A stretch of 64,000 bases of DNA from an uncultured Bacteroidota bacterium (GCA_937867025.1 CALMKH010000048.1:9701-73700); one strand, 5' to 3'; positions 52,088-63,372 are shown, counted from the stretch's first letter. Notes: generated from the sequence alone by a model not told the origin. Made by a program: numbers and translations.

Positions 52088-53908
52088 CTACCTTGCATAT
52101 TTCCATCGCCTGTAAAAGGTGTTGAGAATACCGAATAAAATCACCGCCAATACCGGCACTACAGTATTGATCAGTTGCCAGAATGTTTTTTCCCTTAACC
52201 ATTCTCCTTCGGCGGCCGGTTCTGATATCCTTGCCCTGTCCAGAAGGCGCAGGTTAATCTCTTTGGTTCGTATTTCTATCAGTCCGCTTTCATCGAACAG
52301 GTAGTCAAAACAATTCAGGAGGAATTTTTTATTGGCAAACTGCCTTCCGGTTTCCCTGTCGTAACCCAGAGGAAACACCTCACCGGTGTTGCGCTTGACA
52401 AAATTCAATCCTATATCACCGTCTGCGATTACGATCATGCTGTTCTTCTTAACACTCTCCCTGACCGGCATGTCATAAACCTTATCGGGTCTTCGGAAAT
52501 TGGATTTGAATTCGCCTTCCAGGAGTACTCCCGCTACCTGTGTTCCCGATTTGAAGGATTTCAGATAATCCCTGTTCCCCAGATTATTAATGATATCCAG
52601 CTGCACATAGGCAGGCGCGTCATGAAGCTTGGTGCGGTCGGAGCTCAGCAGCAGGTTCGTTACCTGGAGGTTTTTCCTGGACATGGGTTTCAGCGTGCCG
52701 CTGTAGCGCCCCCAAACCACCTCCAGGTTTTTAACTATGGGATGATCGTTCCCCTTAAAACCGAACAGCGGATAATATACCCATGGGAAAGGCACAAGCT
52801 GTCCTGGTCGTTGCGGATCATTCAGCCGGATATTATTGCATACCAGGTCCATCAGCAGGTTGGAATTCAGCCTGACCCCGTAATTAAAGAGCAGGGTTCT
52901 AAGGTTTTCGTTGTTATAATCCGGAAAAAACGCTTTAGGGTTGAGCCTCAGGCTATCGTGTTCAGCCATCAGAGGATCTATCATCCACACAGTCTTGCCG
53001 CCATGCATGATGAACTGGTCCAGTATATACGCTTCCTCTTTCTGCAATGGCTCAGTGGGTTTTATGACCACGACGCCGTCGTATTGCCTCAATATGTCAA
53101 GCGTCTTGAGCACGATAAGTTTTCCGAGCGTGTCGTGGTTTTGGGTGACAGTGGTCAGACCTGTGAACTGTCTGAGGAAATTTGTATCGCCGAGGTCGAA
53201 CATCACCCGGTCGATATTGTAATTTTCATTCAGGGATGCAAGAAGGTCATCCATAGCCATGGCATCAGGCTCGCCGTGCCCGAAGAGAAAGGCAATTTTT
53301 TTAGGGGTCTTGTTAAGGCATTTGCGTATGACATTGGCGATTTCGTATTCAAGACCTTCAATGGATTTATTAATGGAAGTTTCCTCGGCTCTGCCGAAGT
53401 CAGTGCTCAGGAGGTTGACAACATATTCCTTATTGGCTCCGTAACTCACCTCTGCAGCAGGGAGTATCAGGTTGCGTTTCTGCTGTTCGGCGCCGATCTC
53501 CACATCATTGAAATACATGACGCCTTTCTGGCTGAGCTGTTTGATGATTTCGGCTTTTTCCTTGTCGGTTTTGTCTTTGAACACATTCTCGAATTCAAAG
53601 TCGATCTTGTTGCCGCTCAGGTCCCTGAACTCCCTCAGTATGTCAATTGTCGCAGTCCTCAGGCGCTTGAACCTCGACGACAGGTTGTCGCCCTCGAGGT
53701 ACACCTTGAAATACATCCGGTCATCCACCTTTTGTGCAAGCTGTTTGGAAGTTTCCGATAAGGTGAAACGTTTCTCTTCTGTCAGATCGAACTTCTTGTA
53801 GTATTGTCCCGCCAGCACATTCACTATGACAATCACAGCCATTAGCAGCACCAGCTCGATAAGCGACTGTTGCCTGTATCCTCTTTTGTTTTTCACTTTC
53901 TTTACCAT
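52088..53908 (-). CDS. gldG: Gliding motility-associated ABC transporter substrate-binding / accessory component GldG
   Basis: N-terminal and C-terminal TM anchors around a large external domain. Lies immediately downstream of the gldA-gldF pair. The ATG at 53908 overlaps the gldF stop (ATGGTAA); the alternative ATG at 53941 is the track start. Confidence 0.8.
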   Translation of the reverse strand: MVKKVKNKRGYRQQSLIELVLLMAVIVIVNVLAGQYYKKFDLTEEKRFTLSETSKQLAQKVDDRMYFKVYLEGDNLSSRFKRLRTATIDILREFRDLSGNKIDFEFENVFKDKTDKEKAEIIKQLSQKGVMYFNDVEIGAEQQKRNLILPAAEVSYGANKEYVVNLLSTDFGRAEETSINKSIEGLEYEIANVIRKCLNKTPKKIAFLFGHGEPDAMAMDDLLASLNENYNIDRVMFDLGDTNFLRQFTGLTTVTQNHDTLGKLIVLKTLDILRQYDGVVVIKPTEPLQKEEAYILDQFIMHGGKTVWMIDPLMAEHDSLRLNPKAFFPDYNNENLRTLLFNYGVRLNSNLLMDLVCNNIRLNDPQRPGQLVPFPWVYYPLFGFKGNDHPIVKNLEVVWGRYSGTLKPMSRKNLQVTNLLLSSDRTKLHDAPAYVQLDIINNLGNRDYLKSFKSGTQVAGVLLEGEFKSNFRRPDKVYDMPVRESVKKNSMIVIADGDIGLNFVKRNTGEVFPLGYDRETGRQFANKKFLLNCFDYLFDESGLIEIRTKEINLRLLDRARISEPAAEGEWLREKTFWQLINTVVPVLAVILFGILNTFYRRWKYAR

Positions 53909-54630
53909 TTTCTGCTGTTGAATATGATTTTTGTAAGCCATATGAAAAGTACGATGAGGCTTAGAAAGTACACCACATCGCGTGTATCGATAACACCCCT
54001 GCTGATATTCCTGTAGTGATAATTAATGCCAAACCATTCGATGAAAAAATCGCTGTCCCTGAACAGGGAAAATGATCCGAGGTAATCGAAGGTTGAATAG
54101 AAAAAGAAACAGAGGAACATGCTGACAATGAATGAAACGATCTGATTGTCGGTTATGACGCTGGCAAAAAGCCCTATGGATACATATCCGGCGCTGAGGA
54201 GTATCAGTCCCATGTAGCTGCCCCACAGGGCACCGGTATCCACATTGCCTTTCGGAACTGCAAGTTGCGAGACTGTGTAATAGTAAATCAGGGTAGGGAG
54301 TATGGCAAAAATAACGATGATAAGCCCTGCAAAATATTTTCCCAATATGATGGAAAGATCCGTGATAGGCTTGGTGGTCAGTGTTTCAAACGTGCCTGTC
54401 TTCTTTTCCTCGCTGAAGGAGCGCATTGTAATGGCCGATATGAGGAATATGAAGATGATGGGTGCCAATTCAAAGAGCGGGTCGATATTGGCATAACCCA
54501 TATCCAGGATGTTGGTTTCCTTGAATACCCAGAGGAATAATCCGTTGGCAACAAGGAACACTACGATCACAATGATGGCGATCAGTGAACTCAGGAAGCT
54601 TCGTATTTCTTTTCTTAATATGCTGAACAT
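53902..54630 (-). CDS. gldF: Gliding motility-associated ABC transporter permease GldF
   Basis: 242 aa, six-TM ABC-2-type permease, located between gldA and gldG. Confidence 0.8.
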   Translation of the reverse strand: MFSILRKEIRSFLSSLIAIIVIVVFLVANGLFLWVFKETNILDMGYANIDPLFELAPIIFIFLISAITMRSFSEEKKTGTFETLTTKPITDLSIILGKYFAGLIIVIFAILPTLIYYYTVSQLAVPKGNVDTGALWGSYMGLILLSAGYVSIGLFASVITDNQIVSFIVSMFLCFFFYSTFDYLGSFSLFRDSDFFIEWFGINYHYRNISRGVIDTRDVVYFLSLIVLFIWLTKIIFNSRKW

Positions 54631-54639
54631 GTCTCGTTA

Positions 54640-55548
54640 TTATTGTGTAACATTTTTAAAGATGTCTTCCAGTGAATGCTCTATAAGTTTCATTTCGGTC
54701 AGCATAAGCCCGTTGTCCACGGCAAACTGGAATGTTGAGGATTTGAGCTTTTCATCGTCTGATTGCGAAATGATTGAATACGTGCTGCCGCCAATGTGGG
54801 TGACAGTTCCATATTCGCTGAGCTTCTGCAGCTGATAATCATTCAGGACCGCATTGAATGTTACCTGCAGGGAAGCGCCGGCAGAAAACTGTTGCTTCAG
54901 TTCGGAAGGCTTGCCATTTGCTACGATACGTCCTTTGTTGACTATCATAACGTGGCTGCACATGGCTTCCACTTCCTGCATGATATGCGTTGAAAGCAAT
55001 ACGGTTTTGTGTTTTCCGATATTGATGATAAGATTCCTGATCTCTACTATCTGGTTCGGGTCGAGACCGCTTGTGGGTTCATCGAGAATAAGCACTGAAG
55101 GGTCATGTATCATGGCCTGGGCCAGCCCCACCCGTTGCCTGTACCCTTTCGACAGCTGCCCGATCTTTTTTCTCTGTTCCACTTCAAGGCCTGTCAGTGC
55201 AATCATTTCATTCACCCTTTGGACTTTATTTGGCAAATGATAGACCGATGCGGCAAACATAAGGTACTCCTTGACATACATGTCGGTGTACAATGGATTG
55301 TGTTCAGGGAGGTAGCCGATCTGTCTCCTTACTTCGATGGATTTTTCTTCCACGTCCAGATCATTCACAAAGGCTTTGCCAGATGTGGGCGGCAGGTAAC
55401 ATGTTAGGATTTTCATGGTCGTGGTTTTACCCGCGCCGTTAGGGCCAAGAAATCCTACGATCTCGCCGCTGTTTATCTTAAAGGAGATATGATCGACAGC
55501 ATTTTGTTTTCCGTAGGTTTTGGTTAGATTTTCAACTACTATTGACAC
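54640..55548 (-). CDS. gldA: Gliding motility-associated ABC transporter ATP-binding protein GldA
   Basis: MSIVVENLTKTYGKQNAVDHISF.I..GEIVGFLGPNGAGKTTTMKILT.YL..TSG...V...D........R..IGYLPEHNPLY.DMYV.EYL is closely collinear with Flavobacterium GldA as I recall it. Also LSKGYRQRVGLA and ILDEPTSGLD. Confidence 0.88.
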   Translation of the reverse strand: MSIVVENLTKTYGKQNAVDHISFKINSGEIVGFLGPNGAGKTTTMKILTCYLPPTSGKAFVNDLDVEEKSIEVRRQIGYLPEHNPLYTDMYVKEYLMFAASVYHLPNKVQRVNEMIALTGLEVEQRKKIGQLSKGYRQRVGLAQAMIHDPSVLILDEPTSGLDPNQIVEIRNLIINIGKHKTVLLSTHIMQEVEAMCSHVMIVNKGRIVANGKPSELKQQFSAGASLQVTFNAVLNDYQLQKLSEYGTVTHIGGSTYSIISQSDDEKLKSSTFQFAVDNGLMLTEMKLIEHSLEDIFKNVTQ

Positions 55549-55676: not shown

Positions 55677-57113
55677 TTAATCAAGACCGTATACATAAAA
55701 ATTCCCTACACGCTTTAACAGTCTCAGGCCTTCCAACTGGTCAAAGGCTGGGGGAAAGCCGGCCTCACGGCGGAAGACCAGGTGCCTTACGCCATTTTGT
55801 TTCATGACATCAAAATACCTGCCGTCCCTTGTCATCCTGAGCAGCTCTGCCGGATTTTCAAAGGAATAACCTTCGGTATCCAGGAAGTAAAAAAAGATGC
55901 AACCCGATACATCAGGCCCGACAACAGATTTCGCATCTTTGGGTATGCAGTCCTGCAATGCCTTGCGCATATTTTTATCGGCAAATTCACGTGGAATGCC
56001 GCTGACCTTGTACCATCTGTCGGGTATAATCCTTACAAATGCCCAGATAAAGTTACACACAAGAAGGGCAATGAGGAGAGGTTTAACTTTTGGAAACGTC
56101 CTTAAGCATCGCAACAGGACAATGACAAAAAGCGGTATCAGGGCCATAAAATAATAGCTGTGGTGCATCATCCGCTCGATCGCCATGATATAGAAGCAAG
56201 CAAATCCTGCGAGCCACAACAGGATAAAGATATTCTCGCGACGCATGCTGAACGATCGTAAAAAAACTACAAGGCTGATGACAAGCACCGCGAAAAGGGG
56301 CCATCCTGTAAGTATTTCTGGCAGATCCGAAACAAGGTTGTTAAAGAATGTCAGCAGTTTTTTTTCGGTGCCTATAGGCTGTATCCACAATCCGAATTCC
56401 CGGAGATTGTTCAGCTTTGTAAGACTGAGCGCATAGCGGTACCATGCCACCACAGGCACGACAACAATCATTGCAGATAGAATGGAAACTAATATGTTCT
56501 TCTTGTTTGATTGTAAAAATGCTATTGAGGAAAACGGGATGATCAGGAACTGGAACTTGACAAGTCCCGCTGTCATGGCCATCAGTACGGCTGCTACCAG
56601 GGAACCAGATTTATTGTCCTTAAAATATCCGAGGAAAAAATAAAGTGATCCCAGGGCAAGGCATAATGCCAGTATGTCGGGCATTGCATTGATGCTGTCG
56701 TAATACATCTGGGGAACGGACAATAGCAGCAAAGCCCCGCAGGTAGAAGAAAAAGCCGGAACGTTCAGTTTTCTCAACGCCTTGTAAAAGAACAGCATGC
56801 CAAATGTAAAGATCAGCAGGCTATAGATTCTGGTAGCCGTTTCGGAAAATCCCGTTAGTCTGGAAATGGCGGCAAATCCCCACTCATACAATGGGAAATG
56901 AGAACCTGTCAGGCCGTCTGTTTCGTTGCTGCGGTCAATGCGCGGTTCCAGGATATTCATATTTCCTTCTGCGAAATTCCTCGACATGCCCAGCGTGTTG
57001 CATTGTCGCCATACATGCTGCCCGCAGGGAGGAAGCTGAAGAAAAGGTAAATGGACAACCAGGTTGACTAAAAAGAAGATCAGGAATTTTTTAAAGGAAT
57101 CCGGTATCCTCAT
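55677..57113 (-). CDS. GT-C fold glycosyltransferase (family 39/83, ArnT/PMT_2-like) membrane protein
   Basis: Start at MRIPDSFKKFLIFFLV (57113; ATGA overlap with the upstream stop). First loop HVWRQCNTLGMSRNF...LEPRID...GSHFPLYEW is typical of ArnT-like enzymes. About 12 TM segments plus a C-terminal soluble domain. Confidence 0.75.
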   Translation of the reverse strand: MRIPDSFKKFLIFFLVNLVVHLPFLQLPPCGQHVWRQCNTLGMSRNFAEGNMNILEPRIDRSNETDGLTGSHFPLYEWGFAAISRLTGFSETATRIYSLLIFTFGMLFFYKALRKLNVPAFSSTCGALLLLSVPQMYYDSINAMPDILALCLALGSLYFFLGYFKDNKSGSLVAAVLMAMTAGLVKFQFLIIPFSSIAFLQSNKKNILVSILSAMIVVVPVVAWYRYALSLTKLNNLREFGLWIQPIGTEKKLLTFFNNLVSDLPEILTGWPLFAVLVISLVVFLRSFSMRRENIFILLWLAGFACFYIMAIERMMHHSYYFMALIPLFVIVLLRCLRTFPKVKPLLIALLVCNFIWAFVRIIPDRWYKVSGIPREFADKNMRKALQDCIPKDAKSVVGPDVSGCIFFYFLDTEGYSFENPAELLRMTRDGRYFDVMKQNGVRHLVFRREAGFPPAFDQLEGLRLLKRVGNFYVYGLD

Positions 57114-57727
57114 GATTTCAGTTTCAATTTCAACCTGTTTACGAACTGCCTGAACGTTTCGCTGGTATCCAGCATTTCCTTGAACTGTTCTGACGGGGTA
57201 TAAGCCTGTCTTTTGGTGTCTGCCTTTTCGTCGATACGTATTTGCAGGACAATGGACGGATCGCAAAAATATTCTCTGAGGAACGCCTGCCACTGGATCT
57301 TGATGTCCCCGATGAATTCCTCCTGCTGGCGGGTCATTGTAACAATAACTGTTTGCCCCTCAATAGTGGGTATAAGGAGTTTGATAAGGGAAATGACAGA
57401 TACTTTTTGTGTCCCCGCAAACTGGGCAAATGCTTTAAGCGTATTTTCGGAATTGAGGTCGGGGCCTGTTTGTGAAATGGGCTGGGTTGCCTGAGTCTCC
57501 TCATCTTCCTGTTCCTGAAGTTTTTTGTATTCTTCATCGGCCTCTTCCACAATTTCTGCCATGGACAATTGTGTGGCCGGCGGATAGGCTTTATTTTTTA
57601 AAGGTATTTTGGGAAGGACAAAAGATTTATCAGCCAATTCCGGCGGTTTGATCGCGTGTTTGGGGAGTATGGCTTCCTTCCTGGCTTCCGACTTTTCCGC
57701 CAGGCGTTTCTTTATGAAGTCATCACT
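57110..57727 (-). CDS. dnaX: DnaX tau-specific C-terminal region, open in the -1 frame from the A10 run (no ATG of its own)
   Basis: The -1 frame reads AAA AAA AAA AGT GAT GAC... = KKKSDDFIKKRLAEKSEARKEAILPKHAIKPPELADKSF... without a stop, into track ORF 57110-57637. An acidic/Q-rich linker (EEADEEYKKLQEQEDEETQATQP) is followed by a globular C-terminus ending ...TPSEQFKEMLDTSETFRQFVNRLKLKLKS, as in long Bacteroidota DnaX proteins. Confidence 0.6.
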   Translation of the reverse strand, partial: SDDFIKKRLAEKSEARKEAILPKHAIKPPELADKSFVLPKIPLKNKAYPPATQLSMAEIVEEADEEYKKLQEQEDEETQATQPISQTGPDLNSENTLKAFAQFAGTQKVSVISLIKLLIPTIEGQTVIVTMTRQQEEFIGDIKIQWQAFLREYFCDPSIVLQIRIDEKADTKRQAYTPSEQFKEMLDTSETFRQFVNRLKLKLKS

Positions 57728-58821
57728 TTTTTTTTTAGTTCTTCCAGCGTCAGGGCCGAATTCAGGATGCTGCGGATATGGCAGAGCTTCATTAATGCCA
57801 GCTCGATATGAAGGCGCGGATTCCTGCTGCTTTTATATTCCACGTCAAACTGGTTGTTGATGTTGAGTGCATTGAGAAGGAATGACAAATCTGTCAGCTT
57901 GCTTTGCGCTTCGTATTTGGTCTTATGGTTTTCCCCCACATCAAGAAGCCTGACTGTGGAAGCATCCTTGCACACCATCAGGTTCCTGAAGTGTTCGCTC
58001 AATCCGTTCAGCAGCAATTGCCCGTCAAATCCCTTATTCAGTACTTCATCAAACAGGTTCAGCACTTCCCCGATATTCTGGTTGAGGATACTCTCAGTGA
58101 TCCTGAAATAATAATCCTTATCCAGTATGTTGAGGTTTTCAACCGCTTTTTCATAGGTGATGCGCCCGTTACAATAACTCACCATCTGGTCGAACAGCGA
58201 AAGGCAATCCCTTAATCCGCCGTCCGCCTTTTCCGCTATCAGGTGCAGGGCTTCCTCGTCGGCTTCCACATGCTCCTTGTCTGCGATTTTACGCAGGTGC
58301 TGAACCATGTCCTTTACCTGTATACGCTTGAAATTAAATATCTGGCAACGGGAAAGAATGGTGGGAAGTATCTTGTGTTTCTCAGTGGTCGCAAGAATAA
58401 AGATCGCATATTTAGGCGGTTCCTCCAGGGTTTTCAGGAATGCGTTGAATGCAGCCTGCGACAACATGTGAACCTCGTCGATGATATATACTTTGTAGTT
58501 GCCTACCTGCGGTGGAATCCGCACCTGTTCGTTCATGTTGCGTATATCTTCAACCGAGTTATTGCTGGCGGCATCCATCTCAAAAATATTAAACGCGTAA
58601 TCCTGGTCGGGATTATCATTTTCCTTCTGGTTTATCACTTTGGCCAATATCCTGGCGCATGTGGTTTTTCCCACACCCCTGGGGCCGGTAAACAGGAAAG
58701 ACTGGGCGAGATGGTTGTTATTGATCTCATTCAGCAGAGTTTCTGTAATATGCTGCTGGCCCACGACGTCATCAAAGACTGATGGCCTGTATTTTCTTGC
58801 AGATACAATGAAATTCTCCAA
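57712..58821 (-). CDS. dnaX: DNA polymerase III clamp-loader subunit DnaX, zero-frame (gamma-like, 369 aa) product
   Basis: TTG start at 58821 gives (M)ENFIVSARKYRPSVFDDVVGQQHI, the canonical DnaX N-terminus. FTGPRGVGKTTCARILA (Walker A), IIDEVHMLS (Walker B), TLEEPP and ILSRCQIF (SRC). Ends ...LEELKKKVMTS*. Confidence 0.9.
   Translation of the reverse strand: MENFIVSARKYRPSVFDDVVGQQHITETLLNEINNNHLAQSFLFTGPRGVGKTTCARILAKVINQKENDNPDQDYAFNIFEMDAASNNSVEDIRNMNEQVRIPPQVGNYKVYIIDEVHMLSQAAFNAFLKTLEEPPKYAIFILATTEKHKILPTILSRCQIFNFKRIQVKDMVQHLRKIADKEHVEADEEALHLIAEKADGGLRDCLSLFDQMVSYCNGRITYEKAVENLNILDKDYYFRITESILNQNIGEVLNLFDEVLNKGFDGQLLLNGLSEHFRNLMVCKDASTVRLLDVGENHKTKYEAQSKLTDLSFLLNALNINNQFDVEYKSSRNPRLHIELALMKLCHIRSILNSALTLEELKKKVMTS
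57727..57736 (-). other. A10 homopolymer (T10 on plus strand) at the dnaX frame break: candidate slippage / recoding site, or homopolymer error
   Basis: Counted directly: plus-strand t at 57727-57736. The minus strand reads GAA CTA AAA AAA AAA GTG ATG ACT TCA TAA. Confidence 0.6.
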
Positions 58822-58843
58822 AACTGATGTAAGATAAAGGTTG

Positions 58844-58851
58844 CAAAAGTA
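58844..58851 (-). promoter_or_regulatory. Candidate -7 promoter box (TACTTTTG on minus strand) for dnaX
   Basis: The plus strand reads caaaagta. It lies 22 nt upstream of the TTG start at 58821, inside the track's N-terminal extension, which supports the shorter start. Confidence 0.4.
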
Positions 58852-59109
58852 AATGATTTTGATCCGAAATGAAAACCATGTTGATAAAATGCCGGGACGG
58901 CCGGACATTGGTCGGCAAAAATATATACCTTCGGCGAAATTGGCACTGTATCATGCGTTCATCTGTTGCGACGACACTAAAAACTGATATATGTTAGAAC
59001 AAATAATAATTGCCTGTAAGTGAATCTTCTATACTGCCGGATTTGTGTGTAGGACAAACAGAACAGGGTTAGTTGTTAAAAGTATTTGGAAATAATTAAG
59101 GCTGCTTTC

Positions 59110-59430: not shown

Positions 59431-59475
59431 ATCCTCATTCCGCAAGATCCGGATTTTCTCTTCTATGGACGTTTG

Positions 59476-59483
59476 TATCTTTG
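59476..59483 (+). promoter_or_regulatory. Candidate -7 promoter box (TATCTTTG) for alkB
   Basis: Exact TAnnTTTG match 10 nt before the ATG at 59494. It lies inside the track's longer ORF (59473). Confidence 0.4.
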
Positions 59484-59493
59484 CAGGCGTTCT

Positions 59494-60096
59494 ATGGACC
59501 TTTTTAAACAGAACCCGCTTTCCAACTTGTTGCCCTATGATGGCGAGGCGATATATTATGGAAGAGTGCTGTCGCCTGGCGACTCCGACGCGTATCTGCA
59601 AGCATTACTGCATTCCATAGCGTGGAAACATGATGAAGCCGTGATCTTCGGACGTCATTTTATCACCAAAAGAAAGGCGGCCTGGTATGGTGACGAAGCC
59701 TTTGATTATACGTATTCCAATACGACCAAAAGGGCGTTGCCGTGGACGCGTGAACTTCTGGAACTGAAAGAACTGTCAGAAAAGGTCACAGGCATTACCT
59801 ATAATTCGTGCCTGCTGAACCTGTATCATACAGGCGAAGAGGGTATGGCCTGGCACAGTGATGATGAAAAAAAGCTGGCCAGGGGAAAAGGAATCGCTTC
59901 ACTGAGCTTTGGCGCGGAACGGAAATTCGCCTTTAAGCACAAGGACAGCAAACAACTTGTTTCCCTTATTCTGGAGCACGGGAGCATGCTGTTAATGAAA
60001 GGGGAAACGCAGACCCACTGGTGGCACAGGCTGCCTCCATCGACCAAAGTCAGAACACCCAGGGTAAATTTGACTTTCCGAACCATTCTCCCGTGA
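59494..60096 (+). CDS. alkB: Fe(II)/2-oxoglutarate-dependent DNA/RNA dealkylation dioxygenase AlkB
   Basis: LLPYDGEAIYYG, NSCLLNLYHTGEEGMAWHSDDE (HxD), SLSFGAERKFAFKH, HGSMLLMKGETQTHWWHRLP and RVNLTFR. Confidence 0.88.
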   Translation: MDLFKQNPLSNLLPYDGEAIYYGRVLSPGDSDAYLQALLHSIAWKHDEAVIFGRHFITKRKAAWYGDEAFDYTYSNTTKRALPWTRELLELKELSEKVTGITYNSCLLNLYHTGEEGMAWHSDDEKKLARGKGIASLSFGAERKFAFKHKDSKQLVSLILEHGSMLLMKGETQTHWWHRLPPSTKVRTPRVNLTFRTILP

Positions 60097-60172: not shown

Positions 60173-60180
60173 TATATTTG
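60173..60180 (+). promoter_or_regulatory. Candidate -7 promoter box (TATATTTG) driving the riboswitch leader
   Basis: Exact TAnnTTTG match immediately upstream of the riboswitch 5' end. Confidence 0.45.
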
Positions 60181-60185
60181 CACCC

Positions 60186-60372
60186 GATAACGGTTCCTCG
60201 CTTAAGTAATTCTTAAGCCCGGATTAATAGGGAACGGGGTGCGAATCCCCGACATTTCCCGATGCTGTGATCTCCTGCACCCTGGGTGCGTTTTTTGATA
60301 ATTCATACCACTGTACGCTCAGGCGTATGGGAAGGTTCAAAAAGGATAGGAGTAGTCAGAAGACCTGCCATT
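60186..60372 (+). promoter_or_regulatory. Cobalamin (B12) riboswitch
   Basis: Conserved elements in canonical order: GGTTCC (60192), AATAGGGAACGGGGTGCGAATCCCCGAC (60226-60253), CCCGATGCTGTGA (60258-60270), CCACTG (60308), GGGAAGG (60329), and B12 box AGTCAGAAGACCTGCC (60354-60369). It sits upstream of a TonB-dependent receptor. A T8 run at 60438-60445, preceded by an imperfect hairpin, may be the expression-platform terminator. Confidence 0.9.
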
Positions 60373-60467
60373 ATCAGACGTTTCAAAGCTTTCGGAGAAA
60401 AAGCCTGGGATATACTGATTTTTCAGCTGTCATTCCATTTTTTTTCCGTTGCTGCAAGTGTAGAAAA

Positions 60468-62360
60468 ATGAAAAGCTTCGTGCTCATAATGCTTTGCGTA
60501 TGCAGTGTTTTTTTCCTGTCCGCCCAGGAAGGGAAGGAGGACACAACCGTGCTGAAAAAGTTTGAACTGATATCCCAAAAGCCGGGCAATGAGAGCACAG
60601 GTTCGGTTAAGATCAACCTGCCTTCCGGCAGCAGTCATTCACTTGCAGATATACTTAACCAGTACAGCGCTTTGTTTGTAAAATACTATAGCCCGGTAAG
60701 CCTGGCTACGGTGTCGATGAGGGGCATGGGGGCCCAGCATACGGCAGTCCTATGGAACGGCATCAATCTGCAAAGTACGATGAATGGTGTGATGGATTTT
60801 AACCTTCTGCCGGGTTTTTTTATTGATCAGGCCGAACTTCATACCGGTGCCAATGCCACATCATCCCCTAACGGTGCTATAGCCGGGGCTATTTACCTCG
60901 ACAACAAACCTGTAAGGAACAATACGGTTTTCACCGAGCTGCAGGCCGGCAGTTTCCAGGCAAGGAGTTATGCCGCGGGAGTTACTTATGATATCAGGCG
61001 CTGGACATTCCGGAGCAGGGCTTTATATAAGGAATCAGCCAATGATTTTGAATATGTTGATTATTTCAAACCCGGGAAACCGCTTGAAAAGCTTGAACAC
61101 AGCCGCTTCAGGCAATATGGCGGCATGCAGGAAATATGGTTCAGACCCGCTAAGCGGCATCAGCTTTACCTGAACGCCTGGGGACAGGCCACCGAAAGGC
61201 AGTTGCCGCCGGTCATGGGAGCAGCGCTCTTTCATGAAAGGCAGGATGACTACAGCCAGAGGATATTGTTGCAGCATGAATGGAAAGTGAATGCCGCTCT
61301 CGCGGTAAAAAATAAGGCCGCCTATATTGATGAACGCCTCAACTATTTTAACGATAACCTTGCTCCGGCATATAACCATTCAAGGACCACATTTGCGGAA
61401 AGTGAATTAAAATACCGTGCAGCGGAAAGAGTGGTTATCTCTGCCTCGCTCAACTACACTTTGCAGCAAGCCGTAGCCGACGGATATAAAGACGGGCGGC
61501 AAAGGCACATATGGTCGCAGTGCACAAGGATTGACTGGAAAAGCCGGAATGAAAGACTGAAGCTGAGCCTGGCGAATCGTCAGCTGATTGCCGGTCGTCA
61601 TATGGCGCCTTCAAGTCCTGATTTTGGATTTGAATACCAGGTCGGGAAGAAACTGAAGTTGAAAGGAAATGCCGCATACAGTTTCAGGATTCCGACATTC
61701 AATGACCTGTACTGGATTGGAGGAGGTAACCCGAACCTCTTGCCAGAGAAAGGCAGGAAAGCAGAGTTGAGCCTGGAATTCAGGCATAAGGAATTAAAGG
61801 TGAGCCCGACAGTTTTTTATCAGCAGGTCAGCAACTGGATTATCTGGATGCCGGACACGGGTTCGAGCCTGTGGAGGGCTGTTAATGCCCGGCAGGTAAA
61901 AAGCCGCGGACTGGAGCTTGCCGCAGAGTATGCCAAAACCATATTAAAACATCATTCATTCAAGGTGTTTGGCCGGTACCAGTTTGTTCAAAGTATAAAT
62001 ACGAAGGTATATGACAGGGATAGTACAGCCCTTGGCAAACAGCTGTTCTATACGCCTGTGCATACAGGATTTGTTCAGCTGCGGTACACTTATAAACGGT
62101 TCCAGTTCTGGCTGGGATCTGTTTATACGGGAAGCCGTTTCACCACATCCGATAACGATAGGGATTATATGATGCCTGCTTACAGGATCATGAACGCAGG
62201 CATAGCTTATATGTACGCCTACAAAAAACACGAGGCTGTGCTTGGATTCCTGGTCAATAACATTGGAAATACCACGTACCAGGTCATCGAAAACAGGCCT
62301 ATGCCAATGAGAAATTATCAAGTAACTTTAAAAATAAATATTCATTATGAAAAAAATTAA
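60468..62360 (+). CDS. btuB: TonB-dependent outer-membrane cobalamin receptor
   Basis: ATG at 60468 (MKSFVLIMLCVCSVFFLSAQE signal). The track's 60267 start would translate the riboswitch. Plug motifs SLADILNQ..., VSMRGMGAQHTAVLWNGINL. BtuB-sized barrel of 630 aa. Under a B12 riboswitch. Confidence 0.85.
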   Translation: MKSFVLIMLCVCSVFFLSAQEGKEDTTVLKKFELISQKPGNESTGSVKINLPSGSSHSLADILNQYSALFVKYYSPVSLATVSMRGMGAQHTAVLWNGINLQSTMNGVMDFNLLPGFFIDQAELHTGANATSSPNGAIAGAIYLDNKPVRNNTVFTELQAGSFQARSYAAGVTYDIRRWTFRSRALYKESANDFEYVDYFKPGKPLEKLEHSRFRQYGGMQEIWFRPAKRHQLYLNAWGQATERQLPPVMGAALFHERQDDYSQRILLQHEWKVNAALAVKNKAAYIDERLNYFNDNLAPAYNHSRTTFAESELKYRAAERVVISASLNYTLQQAVADGYKDGRQRHIWSQCTRIDWKSRNERLKLSLANRQLIAGRHMAPSSPDFGFEYQVGKKLKLKGNAAYSFRIPTFNDLYWIGGGNPNLLPEKGRKAELSLEFRHKELKVSPTVFYQQVSNWIIWMPDTGSSLWRAVNARQVKSRGLELAAEYAKTILKHHSFKVFGRYQFVQSINTKVYDRDSTALGKQLFYTPVHTGFVQLRYTYKRFQFWLGSVYTGSRFTTSDNDRDYMMPAYRIMNAGIAYMYAYKKHEAVLGFLVNNIGNTTYQVIENRPMPMRNYQVTLKINIHYEKN

Positions 62361-63372
62361 AAGCGCGTCCTGGCTGATTGCAGCCCTTTTTGTTTCCGTA
62401 TTTTCTGCCTGTAAGCCGGATGAAGATGTGAAAGTGGAAACGGAGAATTTTGAAGGTGTGATCGTTGTGAACGAAGGCGGTTTCGGAAAGTCAAATGGCA
62501 GTGTCGGGGTGTTTAAACCGGGAACTGGGGATTATTTTGACGCATTCAGGAAAGCCAATGGAAGACCTCTTGGCGACGTGGTGCAATCCGTTACCCTGAT
62601 CAATGACAAATTCTATATAGTGGTGAACAACAGCAACAAGATTGAGGTGGTGAACAAGAGCGATTTCAAATCTGTGACCACCATAACCGTTACCCAGCCG
62701 CGTTATGTCCTGCCTGTGGGATCCGGCAAAGCCTATATCAGCCAGATGAATAGTCAGGTCATAGCCGTATTAAATACCAATACCAATACGATTTCTAAAA
62801 ACATAGATGTGAAGTCTGCAACCGACAACATGGCGGTGATGAACGGAAGGGTTTACGCCGGAAAGGCTTTTGGCGACAGGATATATGTGATCAATGATAC
62901 AACGGATGTAGTGGTAGATTCCATCATTGTCGGAAAAGGTGTCAGCAACATTGTCAATATCAGTTCCGACAGGATCGCCGTTCTATGTTCCGGCCTTCCA
63001 AGTGTTGAAAATGGAAAGATCGCATTTATCAATAAGGATTCCGCAAAGGTGGAGAGAAAGGTCGATTTCACCAGTGGGTCATACAGCGGTGTGATGGATT
63101 ATTACAATGGCAACCTGTACTACAGTTTCGGCGACGGTAAGGTTTACAGCATTGCTTCAACTGCAACAGCCCCTGCTGCCAGCCCGTCCATAACGCTTTC
63201 TTCAGGCTCGGTCTATGGTTTGAACATTGATAGATCCAATGGCGATCGTTACATTTGCGATGCCACGGATTTTAACAGCGCAGGCAAAGTGTATATTTAC
63301 AACAACTCTGATGACCTTGTGAGACAATTCTCTACAGGCATAGCCCCGAGCAAAGTCATATTCAACAAATAA
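62347..63372 (+). CDS. Surface lipoprotein, YncE/DUF5074-like beta-propeller, B12-locus associated
   Basis: Lipobox LFVSVFSAC. Begins VIVVNEGGFGKSNGSVGVF and repeats blade-like motifs (KFYIVVNNSNKIEVVN, KAYISQMNSQVIAVLN, GRVYAG..DRIYVIND, GKIAFINKDS, GNLYYSFGDGKVYSI, GKVYIYNNS). Overlaps the btuB stop by 14 nt. Confidence 0.65.
   Translation: MKKIKSASWLIAALFVSVFSACKPDEDVKVETENFEGVIVVNEGGFGKSNGSVGVFKPGTGDYFDAFRKANGRPLGDVVQSVTLINDKFYIVVNNSNKIEVVNKSDFKSVTTITVTQPRYVLPVGSGKAYISQMNSQVIAVLNTNTNTISKNIDVKSATDNMAVMNGRVYAGKAFGDRIYVINDTTDVVVDSIIVGKGVSNIVNISSDRIAVLCSGLPSVENGKIAFINKDSAKVERKVDFTSGSYSGVMDYYNGNLYYSFGDGKVYSIASTATAPAASPSITLSSGSVYGLNIDRSNGDRYICDATDFNSAGKVYIYNNSDDLVRQFSTGIAPSKVIFNK

What the first reader, a model, noticed from the sequence alone, without database searches (positions are those of the whole stretch)
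57110..58821. dnaX is interrupted exactly at an A10 run: zero frame stops 4 codons later, -1 frame stays open ~205 codons into a tau-like tail
On the minus strand the clamp-loader ORF starts at TTG 58821 and carries Walker A GPRGVGKTT, Walker B DEVHML and the SRC motif. It reads ...GAA CTA AAA AAA AAA GTG ATG ACT TCA TAA (ELKKKVMTS*), with the stop at 57712. The run is 10 A (plus-strand T10, 57727-57736). In the -1 frame the same run reads AAA AAA AAA AGT GAT GAC TTC... (KKKSDDFIKKRLAEKSEARKEAILPKHAIKPPELADKSF...). There is no stop across the 74-nt apparent gap, and the frame continues into track ORF 57110-57637. That ORF has no ATG of its own, and its acidic linker plus globular end look like the tau-specific domains of long DnaX proteins. 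Three events would fuse the parts into roughly 570 aa: one extra A in the mRNA, two fewer A, or a -1 ribosomal slip. E. coli (-1 ribosomal shift on A AAA AAG) and Thermus thermophilus (transcriptional slippage on an A run) both make two DnaX products at A-rich sites. In those cases the unshifted product is full-length tau. Here the polarity would be inverted: the default product is short and gamma-like, and the recoded product is tau. A 1-nt homopolymer assembly error is an equally simple explanation.
Basis: partly seen in the sequence, partly recalled or inferred. Interest (0 to 1): 0.72.

Follow-up and report, generated by a model that had tools for sequence, protein, structure and literature searches.

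The report
Split dnaX rejoined by poly-A slippage
The replication clamp-loader gene dnaX of this Bacteroidota genome really is broken at a run of ten A's, and relatives keep the same break, so the full-length tau protein is most likely made by programmed slippage; this layout was already described in 2013.

Summary
On the minus strand dnaX starts at TTG 58821. It reaches an A10 run (57727-57736) at the end of clamp-loader domain III and stops 4 codons later (TAA 57712-57714). The -1 frame then runs 205 codons to TGA 57110-57112.

It is not an assembly error. All 18 species-level genomes of the window's own clade carry the break, 17 as A10/-1. So does an independent assembly of a strain 97.6% identical to the window, and so do 8 metagenome contigs. 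More distant Bacteroidota, including four Echinicola isolates, carry A9-A12 breaks that need a -1 or a +1 shift.

Of 14 uninterrupted relatives, 11 keep an in-frame A9-A11 run at the same KKK site, with stops close by in both other frames. The break has been gained or lost at least 7 times.

No conserved RNA structure, in-phase A_AAA_AAG heptamer or conserved start codon for the tail exists. The tail is under purifying selection from the first codon after the run. Transcriptional slippage is therefore the best mechanism: A11 or A8 mRNA gives tau of about 570 aa, and A9, A10 or A12 gives gamma.

Antonov et al. 2013 (NAR 41:6514) described exactly this two-ORF, A10 dnaX in Flavobacterium, Cytophaga, Capnocytophaga, Chlorobi and others. 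This is a new member of a known kind. It remains untested experimentally and is mis-annotated in databases, where the tail is a "hypothetical protein", DUF8439.

The parts
57712..58821 (-). dnaX zero-frame ORF, the gamma-like product (369 aa: AAA+ domains I-III plus KKKVMTS), from TTG start to TAA stop
   Evidence: Searches give the sequence. Pfam finds DNA_pol3_delta2, DNAX_ATPase_lid and DNA_pol3_gamma3. NCBIfam TIGR02397 dnaX_nterm scores 394 bits against a cut-off of 250. E. coli gamma/tau structures match at E 1.5e-58. The start position is shared with relatives.
57727..57736 (-). A10 slippery run, read in the zero frame as CT[A AAA AAA AAA]; the recoding site at the domain III/linker boundary
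   Evidence: locate it. It is invariant in the alignment of 13 close relatives. A9-A12 runs sit at the homologous site in 41 of 45 Bacteroidota genomes.
57712..57714 (-). Zero-frame stop TAA, which ends gamma on A10 (or A13) mRNA
   Evidence: One search shows it. A stop at this exact distance (12 nt after the run) is kept in all 17 A10 loci of the clade, although the overlapping -1-frame codons vary.
57723..57725 (-). +1-frame stop TGA directly after the run; it ends gamma (…ELKKK*) on A9 or A12 mRNA
   Evidence: One search shows the sequence GTGATGA. One search finds the +1 frame closed 3 codons from the start of the run in every close relative.
57110..57727 (-). Tau-specific extension in the -1 frame: 205 codons from AGT (its first base is the last A of the run) to TGA
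   Evidence: define it. The tail alone hits positions 435-613 of the 614-position PRK14971 model, E 1.7e-9. It is collinear with the C-termini of uninterrupted DnaX. It is conserved, with excess third-position change, from the first codon after the run.
57113..57451 (-). Globular C-terminal domain of the tail (tail residues 93-205), catalogued as Pfam DUF8439 (PF28557); predicted alpha-alpha-beta-beta-alpha-alpha-beta core followed by two helices
   Evidence: The AlphaFold2 model has pLDDT about 90 over residues 90-170. The best compact Foldseek matches are DnaA domain I (4tps) and DciA.
58844..58851 (-). TACTTTTG, a match to the Bacteroidota -7 promoter motif TAnnTTTG, 23 nt upstream of the TTG start (inferred only)
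   Evidence: The sequence is. The motif is recalled from my own knowledge and was not tested here.

Best explanation
This is one functional dnaX gene whose DNA encodes the short gamma-like clamp-loader subunit in the zero frame. It yields the essential full-length tau only from mRNAs in which RNA polymerase has slipped on the A10 run.

The products by mRNA run length would be:
- A11 (one extra A) or A8: these join the tail frame and give tau of about 570 aa. That protein has AAA+ domains I-III, an acidic linker and a KH-like C-terminal domain.
- A10 or A13: gamma ending KKKVMTS.
- A9 or A12: gamma ending KKK.

The run is therefore a built-in divider that makes both subunits from one gene, as in Thermus thermophilus dnaX, but with the DNA frame set to gamma.

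What is shown:
- the anatomy of the locus;
- conservation of the run, of both early stops and of the tail frame;
- absence of an independent start for the tail;
- absence of a conserved RNA stimulator;
- repeated switching between the interrupted and in-frame states.

What is inferred:
- that the slip happens in RNA polymerase rather than in the ribosome;
- its efficiency;
- that the tail binds Pol III alpha or DnaB as tau does elsewhere.
For: 1. The break is real and selected.
- In the window's clade of 18 species-level genomes (81-89% aa identity), 17 have A10 with the tail in -1. They share the zero-frame stop at +12 nt and a +1-frame TGA right after the run.
- A strain 97.6% identical at the DNA level, from an independent ENA assembly, has A10.
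- All 8 dnaX-bearing metagenome contigs have A10. Four of them are independent assemblies of species already in the genome set.
- Four Echinicola isolate genomes have A10/-1.

2. The tail is coding from the run onward.
- The motifs SD[DE][FY][IL] and LPVHAIKPPEL lie upstream of the only candidate start, TTG 57637.
- Pairwise differences at codon positions 1/2/3 are 0.40/0.40/0.58 in that stretch and 0.38/0.29/0.61 in the rest of the tail.
- The first ATG/GTG/TTG in the tail frame wanders from -58 to +386 nt relative to the run.

3. Transcription is favoured over translation.
- Run lengths and required shifts vary between lineages: A9/+1, A10/-1, A10/+1, A11/+1 and A12/-1.
- The phase of the run relative to the codons takes all three values.
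- Eleven of 14 uninterrupted relatives keep an in-frame A9-A11 run at the same KKK site, with stops 3-12 codons away in both other frames. This is the Thermus layout.
- At least 7 switches between the interrupted and in-frame states are needed on an NJ tree.
- RNAalifold finds 0 conserved pairs within 50 nt upstream and 80 nt downstream of the run, and the window's fold has z = +0.68.
- All 10 A's are invariant, although a ribosomal heptamer needs only 7.

4. Precedent.
- Antonov 2013 proposed programmed transcriptional realignment for the A10 two-ORF dnaX genes.
- The Thermus A9 run gives about 50% slipped product.
Against: - There are no transcript or protein data for this or any Bacteroidota dnaX. 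No experimental test turned up in the searchable literature.
- In the zero frame the run contains A_AAA_AAA, a legitimate though weak -1 ribosomal shift heptamer. One relative (L029) has A_AAA_AAG in phase. A ribosomal contribution therefore cannot be excluded for the A10/-1 class.
- An essential protein that depends wholly on polymerase infidelity needs a high slippage rate, and that rate is unmeasured in this phylum.
- There are anomalies among relatives. L010 has an in-frame TAA 9 codons into the tail. L046 has a 1-nt C-run difference in the linker, at 3.9x coverage. L013 has A9.
Confidence: 0.72

Rival explanations
1. Tau is made by programmed -1 ribosomal frameshifting. [quoted passage not shown]
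For: In-phase A_AAA_AAA heptamers exist in the window (CT[A AAA AAA] AAA). L029 carries A_AAA_AAG in phase. The Atkins et al. 2016 review words the reversed dnaX cases as ribosomal frameshifting and mentions E. coli-like signals in Chlorobium phaeobacteroides.
Against: No conserved downstream stem-loop or upstream Shine-Dalgarno-like element was found. Relatives with A9, A10 or A11 that need a +1 shift cannot be rescued by a -1 slip. All 10 A's are conserved, not only 7. The run's phase varies among lineages. Uninterrupted relatives keep the run with stops in both alternative frames, which fits mRNA length heterogeneity.
Confidence: 0.15
2. A homopolymer sequencing or assembly error: the true genome has A11 and one uninterrupted dnaX.
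For: Homopolymers are error-prone. One A10 in 64 kb is not improbable by count alone. One relative shows A9 (L013), and a low-coverage contig shows a nearby C-run indel.
Against: The same A10 break appears in 17 of the 18 species-level genomes of the clade. It also appears in an independent assembly of a strain 97.6% identical to the window, in 8 metagenome contigs and in four Echinicola isolate genomes. Complete genomes in Antonov 2013 show it too. The zero-frame and +1-frame stops right after the run are themselves conserved.
Confidence: 0.02
3. A genuinely split gene: gamma and a separate C-terminal protein (DUF8439) are translated independently, from TTG 57637, from ATG 57561 or by reinitiation, and associate in trans.
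For: Gene callers annotate the tail as a separate 126-226 aa 'hypothetical protein' in every database entry found. A TTG and an ATG exist in the window's tail frame.
Against: No start codon is conserved. The first one lies anywhere from -58 to +386 nt relative to the run, and in L002 it is 128 codons into the tail. Conserved, purifying-selected coding sequence begins at the first codon after the run and precedes every candidate start. The tail frame is open exactly from the run in every genome. The minus-strand gap between the run and TTG 57637 shows no sigma-70-like promoter, intrinsic terminator or, by eye, TAnnTTTG motif.
Confidence: 0.04
4. DNA-level phase variation or decay: the run length flips in the population (A10 to A11), or dnaX is becoming a pseudogene.
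For: Long A runs are hypermutable. Run length differs between lineages, from A9 to A12.
Against: Every consensus assembly of the clade shows the out-of-frame state. Tau is essential in studied bacteria (established knowledge), so an out-of-frame majority could not survive without recoding. The tail is under purifying selection.
Confidence: 0.03

Closest known systems
Two-ORF dnaX with a poly-A recoding site (GeneTack dnaX cluster; Antonov, Coakley, Atkins, Baranov and Borodovsky 2013, NAR 41:6514)
   Same: The same gene, the same position at the gamma/tau boundary and the same A10 followed by G. The tail has the same -1 relation at the DNA level. Gamma is the default product, and recoding is needed for tau. 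Members come from the same phylum: Flavobacterium johnsoniae, F. psychrophilum, Cytophaga hutchinsonii and Capnocytophaga ochracea.
   Different: Nothing in kind. This is another, uncultured freshwater Bacteroidota lineage. The survey here adds three observations: in-frame relatives keep the run, +1-type and A11/A12 variants exist, and the two states have switched at least 7 times.
Thermus thermophilus dnaX transcriptional slippage (Larsen et al. 2000, PNAS 97:1683, as summarised in PMC1088944)
   Same: A homopolymeric A run at the end of the gamma portion. Stops lie close by in the two frames that do not encode tau. The proposed mechanism is an mRNA population with variable run length.
   Different: In Thermus the DNA frame encodes tau and slippage gives gamma; here it is the reverse. 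Thermus has A9 and the window has A10. Eleven of the 14 uninterrupted Bacteroidota relatives do have the Thermus layout.
Escherichia coli dnaX -1 programmed ribosomal frameshift (A_AAA_AAG, upstream SD-like element, downstream stem-loop)
   Same: The same gene and the same boundary, with two products from one gene and an A-rich lysine-codon site.
   Different: No in-phase A_AAA_AAG, no conserved stem-loop and no conserved SD-like element. The polarity is reversed. Related lineages need shifts in either direction.
Shigella flexneri mxiE and Citrobacter rodentium tssM (transcriptional slippage needed for the longer product)
   Same: Two overlapping ORFs are joined only in slipped transcripts, and the longer product depends on slippage (PMC4256274, listed).
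   Different: These are different genes, and mxiE slips on a U run in the mRNA. Neither is an essential replication protein.

Membership tests
DnaX (bacterial clamp-loader gamma/tau, AAA+) | Walker A, Walker B and the SRC arginine finger in an AAA+ module, followed by the lid and domain III | tested here: met
   GPRGVGKTT, DEVHML and LSRCQ are read directly in the sequence. PF13177, PF22608 and PF12169 all score above their cut-offs. TIGR02397 scores 394 bits against 250, and PRK05563 scores 415.9 against 400. E. coli gamma/tau chains match at E 1.5e-58.
DnaX tau form (long product) | A C-terminal extension beyond domain III that is collinear with full-length DnaX of related bacteria | tested here: met
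   The tail alone matches positions 435-613 of the 614-position PRK14971 model, E 1.7e-9. The fused protein aligns end to end with uninterrupted DnaX, for example 2-566 against 1-574 of L026.
DnaX tau form (long product) | The C-terminal domain has the tau domain V fold (type-II KH-like; E. coli 2AYA) and binds Pol III alpha | tested here: inconclusive
   The AF2 model is confident over the globular part. Foldseek gives no hit at E <= 1e-3, and 2AYA is not in the top 50. The best compact hits are DnaA domain I (4tps, target-normalised TM-score 0.64-0.68) and DciA. Marsin et al. 2021 place both in the same type-II KH fold class as DnaX domain V. The tail profile has no sequence hit in the PDB. 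Binding is not testable here.
Two-ORF poly-A dnaX (Antonov 2013 type) | A run of about 10 A at the gamma/tau boundary, with a zero-frame stop just after it and the tau tail in another frame | tested here: met
   A10 at 57727-57736, TAA 12 nt after the run, and a -1 frame open for 205 codons.
Two-ORF poly-A dnaX (Antonov 2013 type) | The frame break and motif are conserved across species and genera | tested here: met
   Thirty of 45 species-level Bacteroidota genomes are interrupted at the homologous site, and 25 of them are A10/-1. Eight metagenome contigs also carry the break.
Programmed transcriptional slippage (realignment) | The mRNA population is heterogeneous in run length while the DNA is homogeneous | not testable with these tools
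   No transcript data are available. The indirect support is variable direction and phase, in-frame relatives that keep the run, and no RNA stimulator.
E. coli-type -1 programmed ribosomal frameshift | An in-phase X_XXY_YYZ heptamer of the efficient kind (A_AAA_AAG) | tested here: not met
   The zero frame reads CTA AAA AAA AAA GTG. Only A_AAA_AAA is in phase, and no AAG codon is.
E. coli-type -1 programmed ribosomal frameshift | A conserved downstream stem-loop or pseudoknot, with or without an upstream SD-like stimulator | tested here: not met
   RNAalifold on 13 relatives predicts 0 pairs. The window's minimum free energy is -25.6 kcal/mol against a shuffle mean of -27.65, z = +0.68. The upstream GAGG/GAAG element is not conserved.

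The most novel reading that the evidence does not exclude
Across Bacteroidota the conserved feature may be the slippery A9-A12 run itself rather than either reading frame. RNA polymerase would spread transcripts over all three frames, so any DNA state would yield a workable tau:gamma mix. The 'default' product would then flip almost neutrally by single-base changes in the run (at least 7 switches among 45 species). That would make dnaX a frame-agnostic essential gene, and the tau:gamma ratio would be tuned by run length. The reversibility idea is already voiced in the Atkins 2016 review. A quantitative demonstration, and the DnaA-domain-I/DciA-like fold of the Bacteroidota tau C-terminus (DUF8439), would be the new parts.
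Probability: 0.4. Interest if true: 0.45.

Novelty: new member of a known kind. Interest (0 to 1): 0.27.

Why it matters
The biological surprise is an essential replication subunit that exists only through deliberate mis-copying of a poly-A run. It was published in 2013, so this window adds another lineage rather than a new principle.

The practical value is in annotation. Pipelines call a truncated 'DNA polymerase III subunit gamma/tau' plus a separate 'hypothetical protein', and Pfam has even registered the orphaned tail as DUF8439. Recognising the recoding site restores a complete tau and gives that DUF a function.

The wider survey shows the run retained whichever frame the DNA encodes, and repeated polarity flips. 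This makes Bacteroidota dnaX a good natural system for measuring RNA polymerase slippage rates, and for asking how the tau:gamma ratio is set. No experiment has yet been reported for this phylum in the searchable literature.

Tried and rejected
- Assembly error: rejected on conservation across independent assemblies.
- Independent initiation of the tail: rejected, because no start codon is conserved and coding sequence upstream of every candidate start is conserved.
- E. coli-type stimulators: searched for and not found.
- Promoter and terminator scan of the locus: counts were at shuffle level, and nothing fell in the minus-strand gap between the run and TTG 57637.
- Sequence search of the tail against Pfam (local copy) and against PDB sequences: no hit.
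- Foldseek of the tail model: no hit at E <= 1e-3 and no direct hit to E. coli tau domain V.
- Exact-protein look-ups of the window's own products to find its source contig: failed for the 150-aa, 369-aa and 398-aa versions. The cluster look-up showed only that the 398-aa and 150-aa calls exist in NCBI/ENA on an 82,547-bp contig.
Of 120 hits, 112 were unrelated, for example in-frame small lipoprotein genes. The 8 dnaX hits were all A10.
- tRNA scan of the window, to find the tRNA-Lys set: no tRNA genes.
Full report
**1. The observation**

Read on the minus strand, the window shows ...CTG GAA GAA CTA AAA AAA AAA GTG ATG ACT TCA TAA. The run is exactly ten A's (plus-strand T10 at 57727-57736), and the zero frame stops at TAA 57712-57714.

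The -1 frame reads KKK SDDFIKKRLAEKSEARKEAILPKHAIKPPELADKSF... It stays open for 205 codons to TGA 57110-57112. Inserting one A gives a 570-aa protein, and deleting two gives 569 aa. Walker A (GPRGVGKTT), Walker B (DEVHML) and the SRC motif are present.

The TTG at 58821 is the right start. In 43 of 45 relatives an ATG, GTG or TTG sits at exactly that codon, before ENF[IV]VSARKYRP.

The run is the only homopolymer of 9 or more in the window. One A10/T10 in 64 kb is what shuffles give, however: 1.23 expected. The case therefore rests on position and conservation, not on the count.

**2. What the two parts are**

The upstream ORF is an unambiguous DnaX.
- Pfam finds DNA_pol3_delta2, the DnaX lid and gamma domain III.
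- NCBIfam dnaX_nterm scores 394 bits against a cut-off of 250.
- E. coli gamma/tau structures match at E 1.5e-58.

The 205-aa tail has no hit in the local Pfam copy. On its own it matches positions 435-613 of the 614-position Bacteroidota DnaX model PRK14971, E 1.7e-9. The fused protein aligns end to end with uninterrupted DnaX proteins of 560-633 aa from other Bacteroidota. The tail is therefore the tau-specific C-terminal third of DnaX.

**3. Is the break real?**

A scan of one genome per species returned 45 Bacteroidota dnaX loci.

- The window's own clade comprises 18 species at 81-89% aa identity, mostly freshwater metagenome-assembled genomes. Seventeen carry A10 followed by GTGA[TC]GA. 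In these the zero-frame stop lies exactly 12 nt after the run, a +1-frame TGA lies directly after it, and the -1 frame is open for about 200 codons. One of the 18 (L013) has A9 with the tail in +1.
- L046 is an independent ENA assembly of a strain 97.6% identical to the window at the DNA level. It also has A10.
- A metagenome scan recovered 8 dnaX contigs, all with A10. Four of them are independent assemblies of species already in the genome set.
- Four Echinicola isolate genomes and several Cytophagales have A10/-1.

The assembly-error explanation is therefore excluded.

**4. Is the tail translated on its own?**

No.
- Conserved motifs begin at the first codon after the run. SD[DE][FY][IL] and then LPVHAIKPPEL both precede the TTG at 57637 that the ORF finder used as a start.
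- That stretch shows the excess of third-position change expected of coding sequence: 0.40/0.40/0.58 against 0.38/0.29/0.61 for the rest of the tail.
- The first canonical start in the tail frame lies anywhere from 58 nt before the run to 386 nt after it, depending on the genome.

**5. Mechanism**

Several observations point to RNA polymerase rather than the ribosome.

- The required shift differs between lineages. A10 needs -1 in most. A9 (L013), A10 (L019) and A11 (two Paludibacteraceae) need +1. A12 (a third Paludibacteraceae) needs -1.
- Within Paludibacteraceae, the A11 and A12 genomes both need A10 or A13 in the mRNA to make tau.
- The run occupies all three codon phases in different lineages.
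- Eleven of 14 uninterrupted relatives keep an in-frame A9-A11 run at the homologous KKK site, with stops 3-12 codons away in both other frames. This is the Thermus thermophilus arrangement, in which slippage makes gamma.
- On an NJ tree of the N-terminal domains, the interrupted and in-frame states have interchanged at least 7 times.
- No conserved RNA structure flanks the site. RNAalifold predicts 0 pairs in 13 relatives, and the window's fold is no more stable than shuffles, z = +0.68.
- The efficient ribosomal heptamer A_AAA_AAG is not in phase. Only A_AAA_AAA is.
- All ten A's are invariant, including the third base of the preceding Leu, Ile, Thr or Val codon. That is more than a heptamer would require.

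The most likely reading is as follows. A11 (or A8) transcripts give tau. A10 or A13 transcripts give gamma ending KKKVMTS. A9 or A12 transcripts give gamma ending KKK. A minor ribosomal contribution on A_AAA_AAA cannot be excluded.

**6. Comparison with what is known**

This arrangement is published. Antonov et al. [quoted passage not shown]
- They found 17 genes in 12 genera, with -1 at the DNA level.
- Nine had A10, and they proposed programmed transcriptional realignment.
- Their Supplementary Figure S3 lists Flavobacterium johnsoniae, F. psychrophilum, Cytophaga hutchinsonii, Capnocytophaga ochracea, several Chlorobi and Coraliomargarita.

The Atkins et al. 2016 review repeats the point. 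[quoted passage not shown]

I found no experimental test in Bacteroidota in the searchable literature. The window is therefore a new member of a known kind.

What this survey adds is modest:
- the Thermus-type layout is common among in-frame Bacteroidota;
- +1-type and A11/A12 variants exist;
- the polarity flips repeatedly.

**7. Side findings on the tail**

Every database protein matching the tail is a separately called 'hypothetical protein' of 126-226 aa. These carry Pfam PF28557, which is named DUF8439. That DUF is thus very probably the C-terminal domain of Bacteroidota tau.

An AlphaFold2 model built on 39 sequences is confident for residues 90-170 of the tail (pLDDT about 90). It has an alpha-alpha-beta-beta-alpha-alpha-beta core followed by two helices.

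Foldseek finds nothing at E <= 1e-3. The best compact matches are DnaA domain I (4tps; target-normalised TM-score 0.64-0.68, rmsd 2.7-2.8 Å over about 82 residues) and DciA. Marsin et al. 2021 state that DciA, DnaA domain I and E. coli DnaX domain V (2AYA) share a type-II KH fold. The model is therefore consistent with a tau domain V-like module, but the link is indirect. 2AYA was not among the top 50 hits, and there is no sequence-level match.

**8. Caveats**

- No RNA or protein data exist for this locus.
- L010 has an in-frame TAA nine codons into its tail.
- L046 differs from the window by one C in a C-run 64 nt after the A-run, in a 3.9x-coverage contig end.
- L013 has A9.

These three may be assembly errors or real variants. 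None changes the overall picture.

**9. Verdict**

Transcriptional slippage is the favoured mechanism, at about 0.7. The finding is a new member of a kind described in 2013. Interest is low to moderate. Its main value is in correcting annotation and as an untested natural system for studying polymerase slippage.

Noticed in passing
window 58822-58908 (-): The public call for this gene is a 398-aa product starting at ATG 58908 (P0041, held by NCBI and ENA). Homologues all begin at the codon equivalent to TTG 58821, and a TAnnTTTG promoter-like motif (58844-58851) lies inside the extra 29 codons. The annotated start is probably too far upstream.
   Followed up: partly
window 57113-57451 (-); proteins P0001-P0039: The tau tail is called as a separate 'hypothetical protein' in every database entry found. 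Those entries carry Pfam PF28557, named DUF8439. This DUF appears to be the orphaned C-terminal domain of Bacteroidota DnaX tau.
   Followed up: partly
window 57113-57451 (-), model m2102b2a8c57f: The predicted fold of the tail's globular domain best resembles DnaA domain I (4tps) and DciA. Both are type-II KH-like modules that contact the DnaB helicase. E. coli tau domain V did not appear among the top 50 hits.
   Followed up: partly
window 57110-57113 (-): The tail's stop codon overlaps the start of the next gene in an ATGA. That gene is a 478-aa PMT_2-family membrane glycosyltransferase (55677-57113). The overlap suggests translational coupling with ribosomes reading the tau frame.
   Followed up: no
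window 60174-60386 (+): A cobalamin riboswitch (Rfam RF00174, 88.9 bits) lies in front of, and overlaps the listed start of, a TonB-dependent receptor ORF (60267-62360). A DUF5074 protein follows at 62347-63372. This looks like a B12-uptake locus, and the receptor's true start is probably downstream of the riboswitch.
   Followed up: no
window 52088-55548 (-): Three genes encode an ABC ATPase, an ABC-2 permease and an ABC_transp_aux protein. This resembles the gldA/gldF/gldG gliding-motility transporter typical of Bacteroidota.
   Followed up: no
window 59473-60096 (+): An AlkB-like 2OG-Fe(II) oxygenase (PF13532, E 7e-34) is transcribed divergently from dnaX.
   Followed up: no
L010 3586-3625; L046 60-100; L013 1349-1357: Three relatives show anomalies. 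L010 has an in-frame TAA nine codons into its tail. L046, the 97.6% identical strain at 3.9x coverage, has CCC where the window has CCCC, 64 nt after the run. L013 has A9 instead of A10, while its 87.6%-identical sister contig L146 has A10. It is not resolved whether these are errors or real variants.
   Followed up: partly
L036 3600-3611; L041 and L045 3600-3610: Paludibacteraceae dnaX genes carry A12 (tail in -1) or A11 followed directly by TAA (tail in +1). Both need A10 or A13 in the mRNA to make tau, so two different out-of-frame DNA states occur within one family.
   Followed up: partly
L076 and L111 (minus strand), L156 (minus strand), L113 (plus strand): Many marine metagenome contigs matched the loose search pattern through an in-frame ...SKKK(G/N)SDEFL[VI]EKK... 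segment of small lipoprotein genes of about 110-150 aa. These are unrelated to dnaX.
   Followed up: partly
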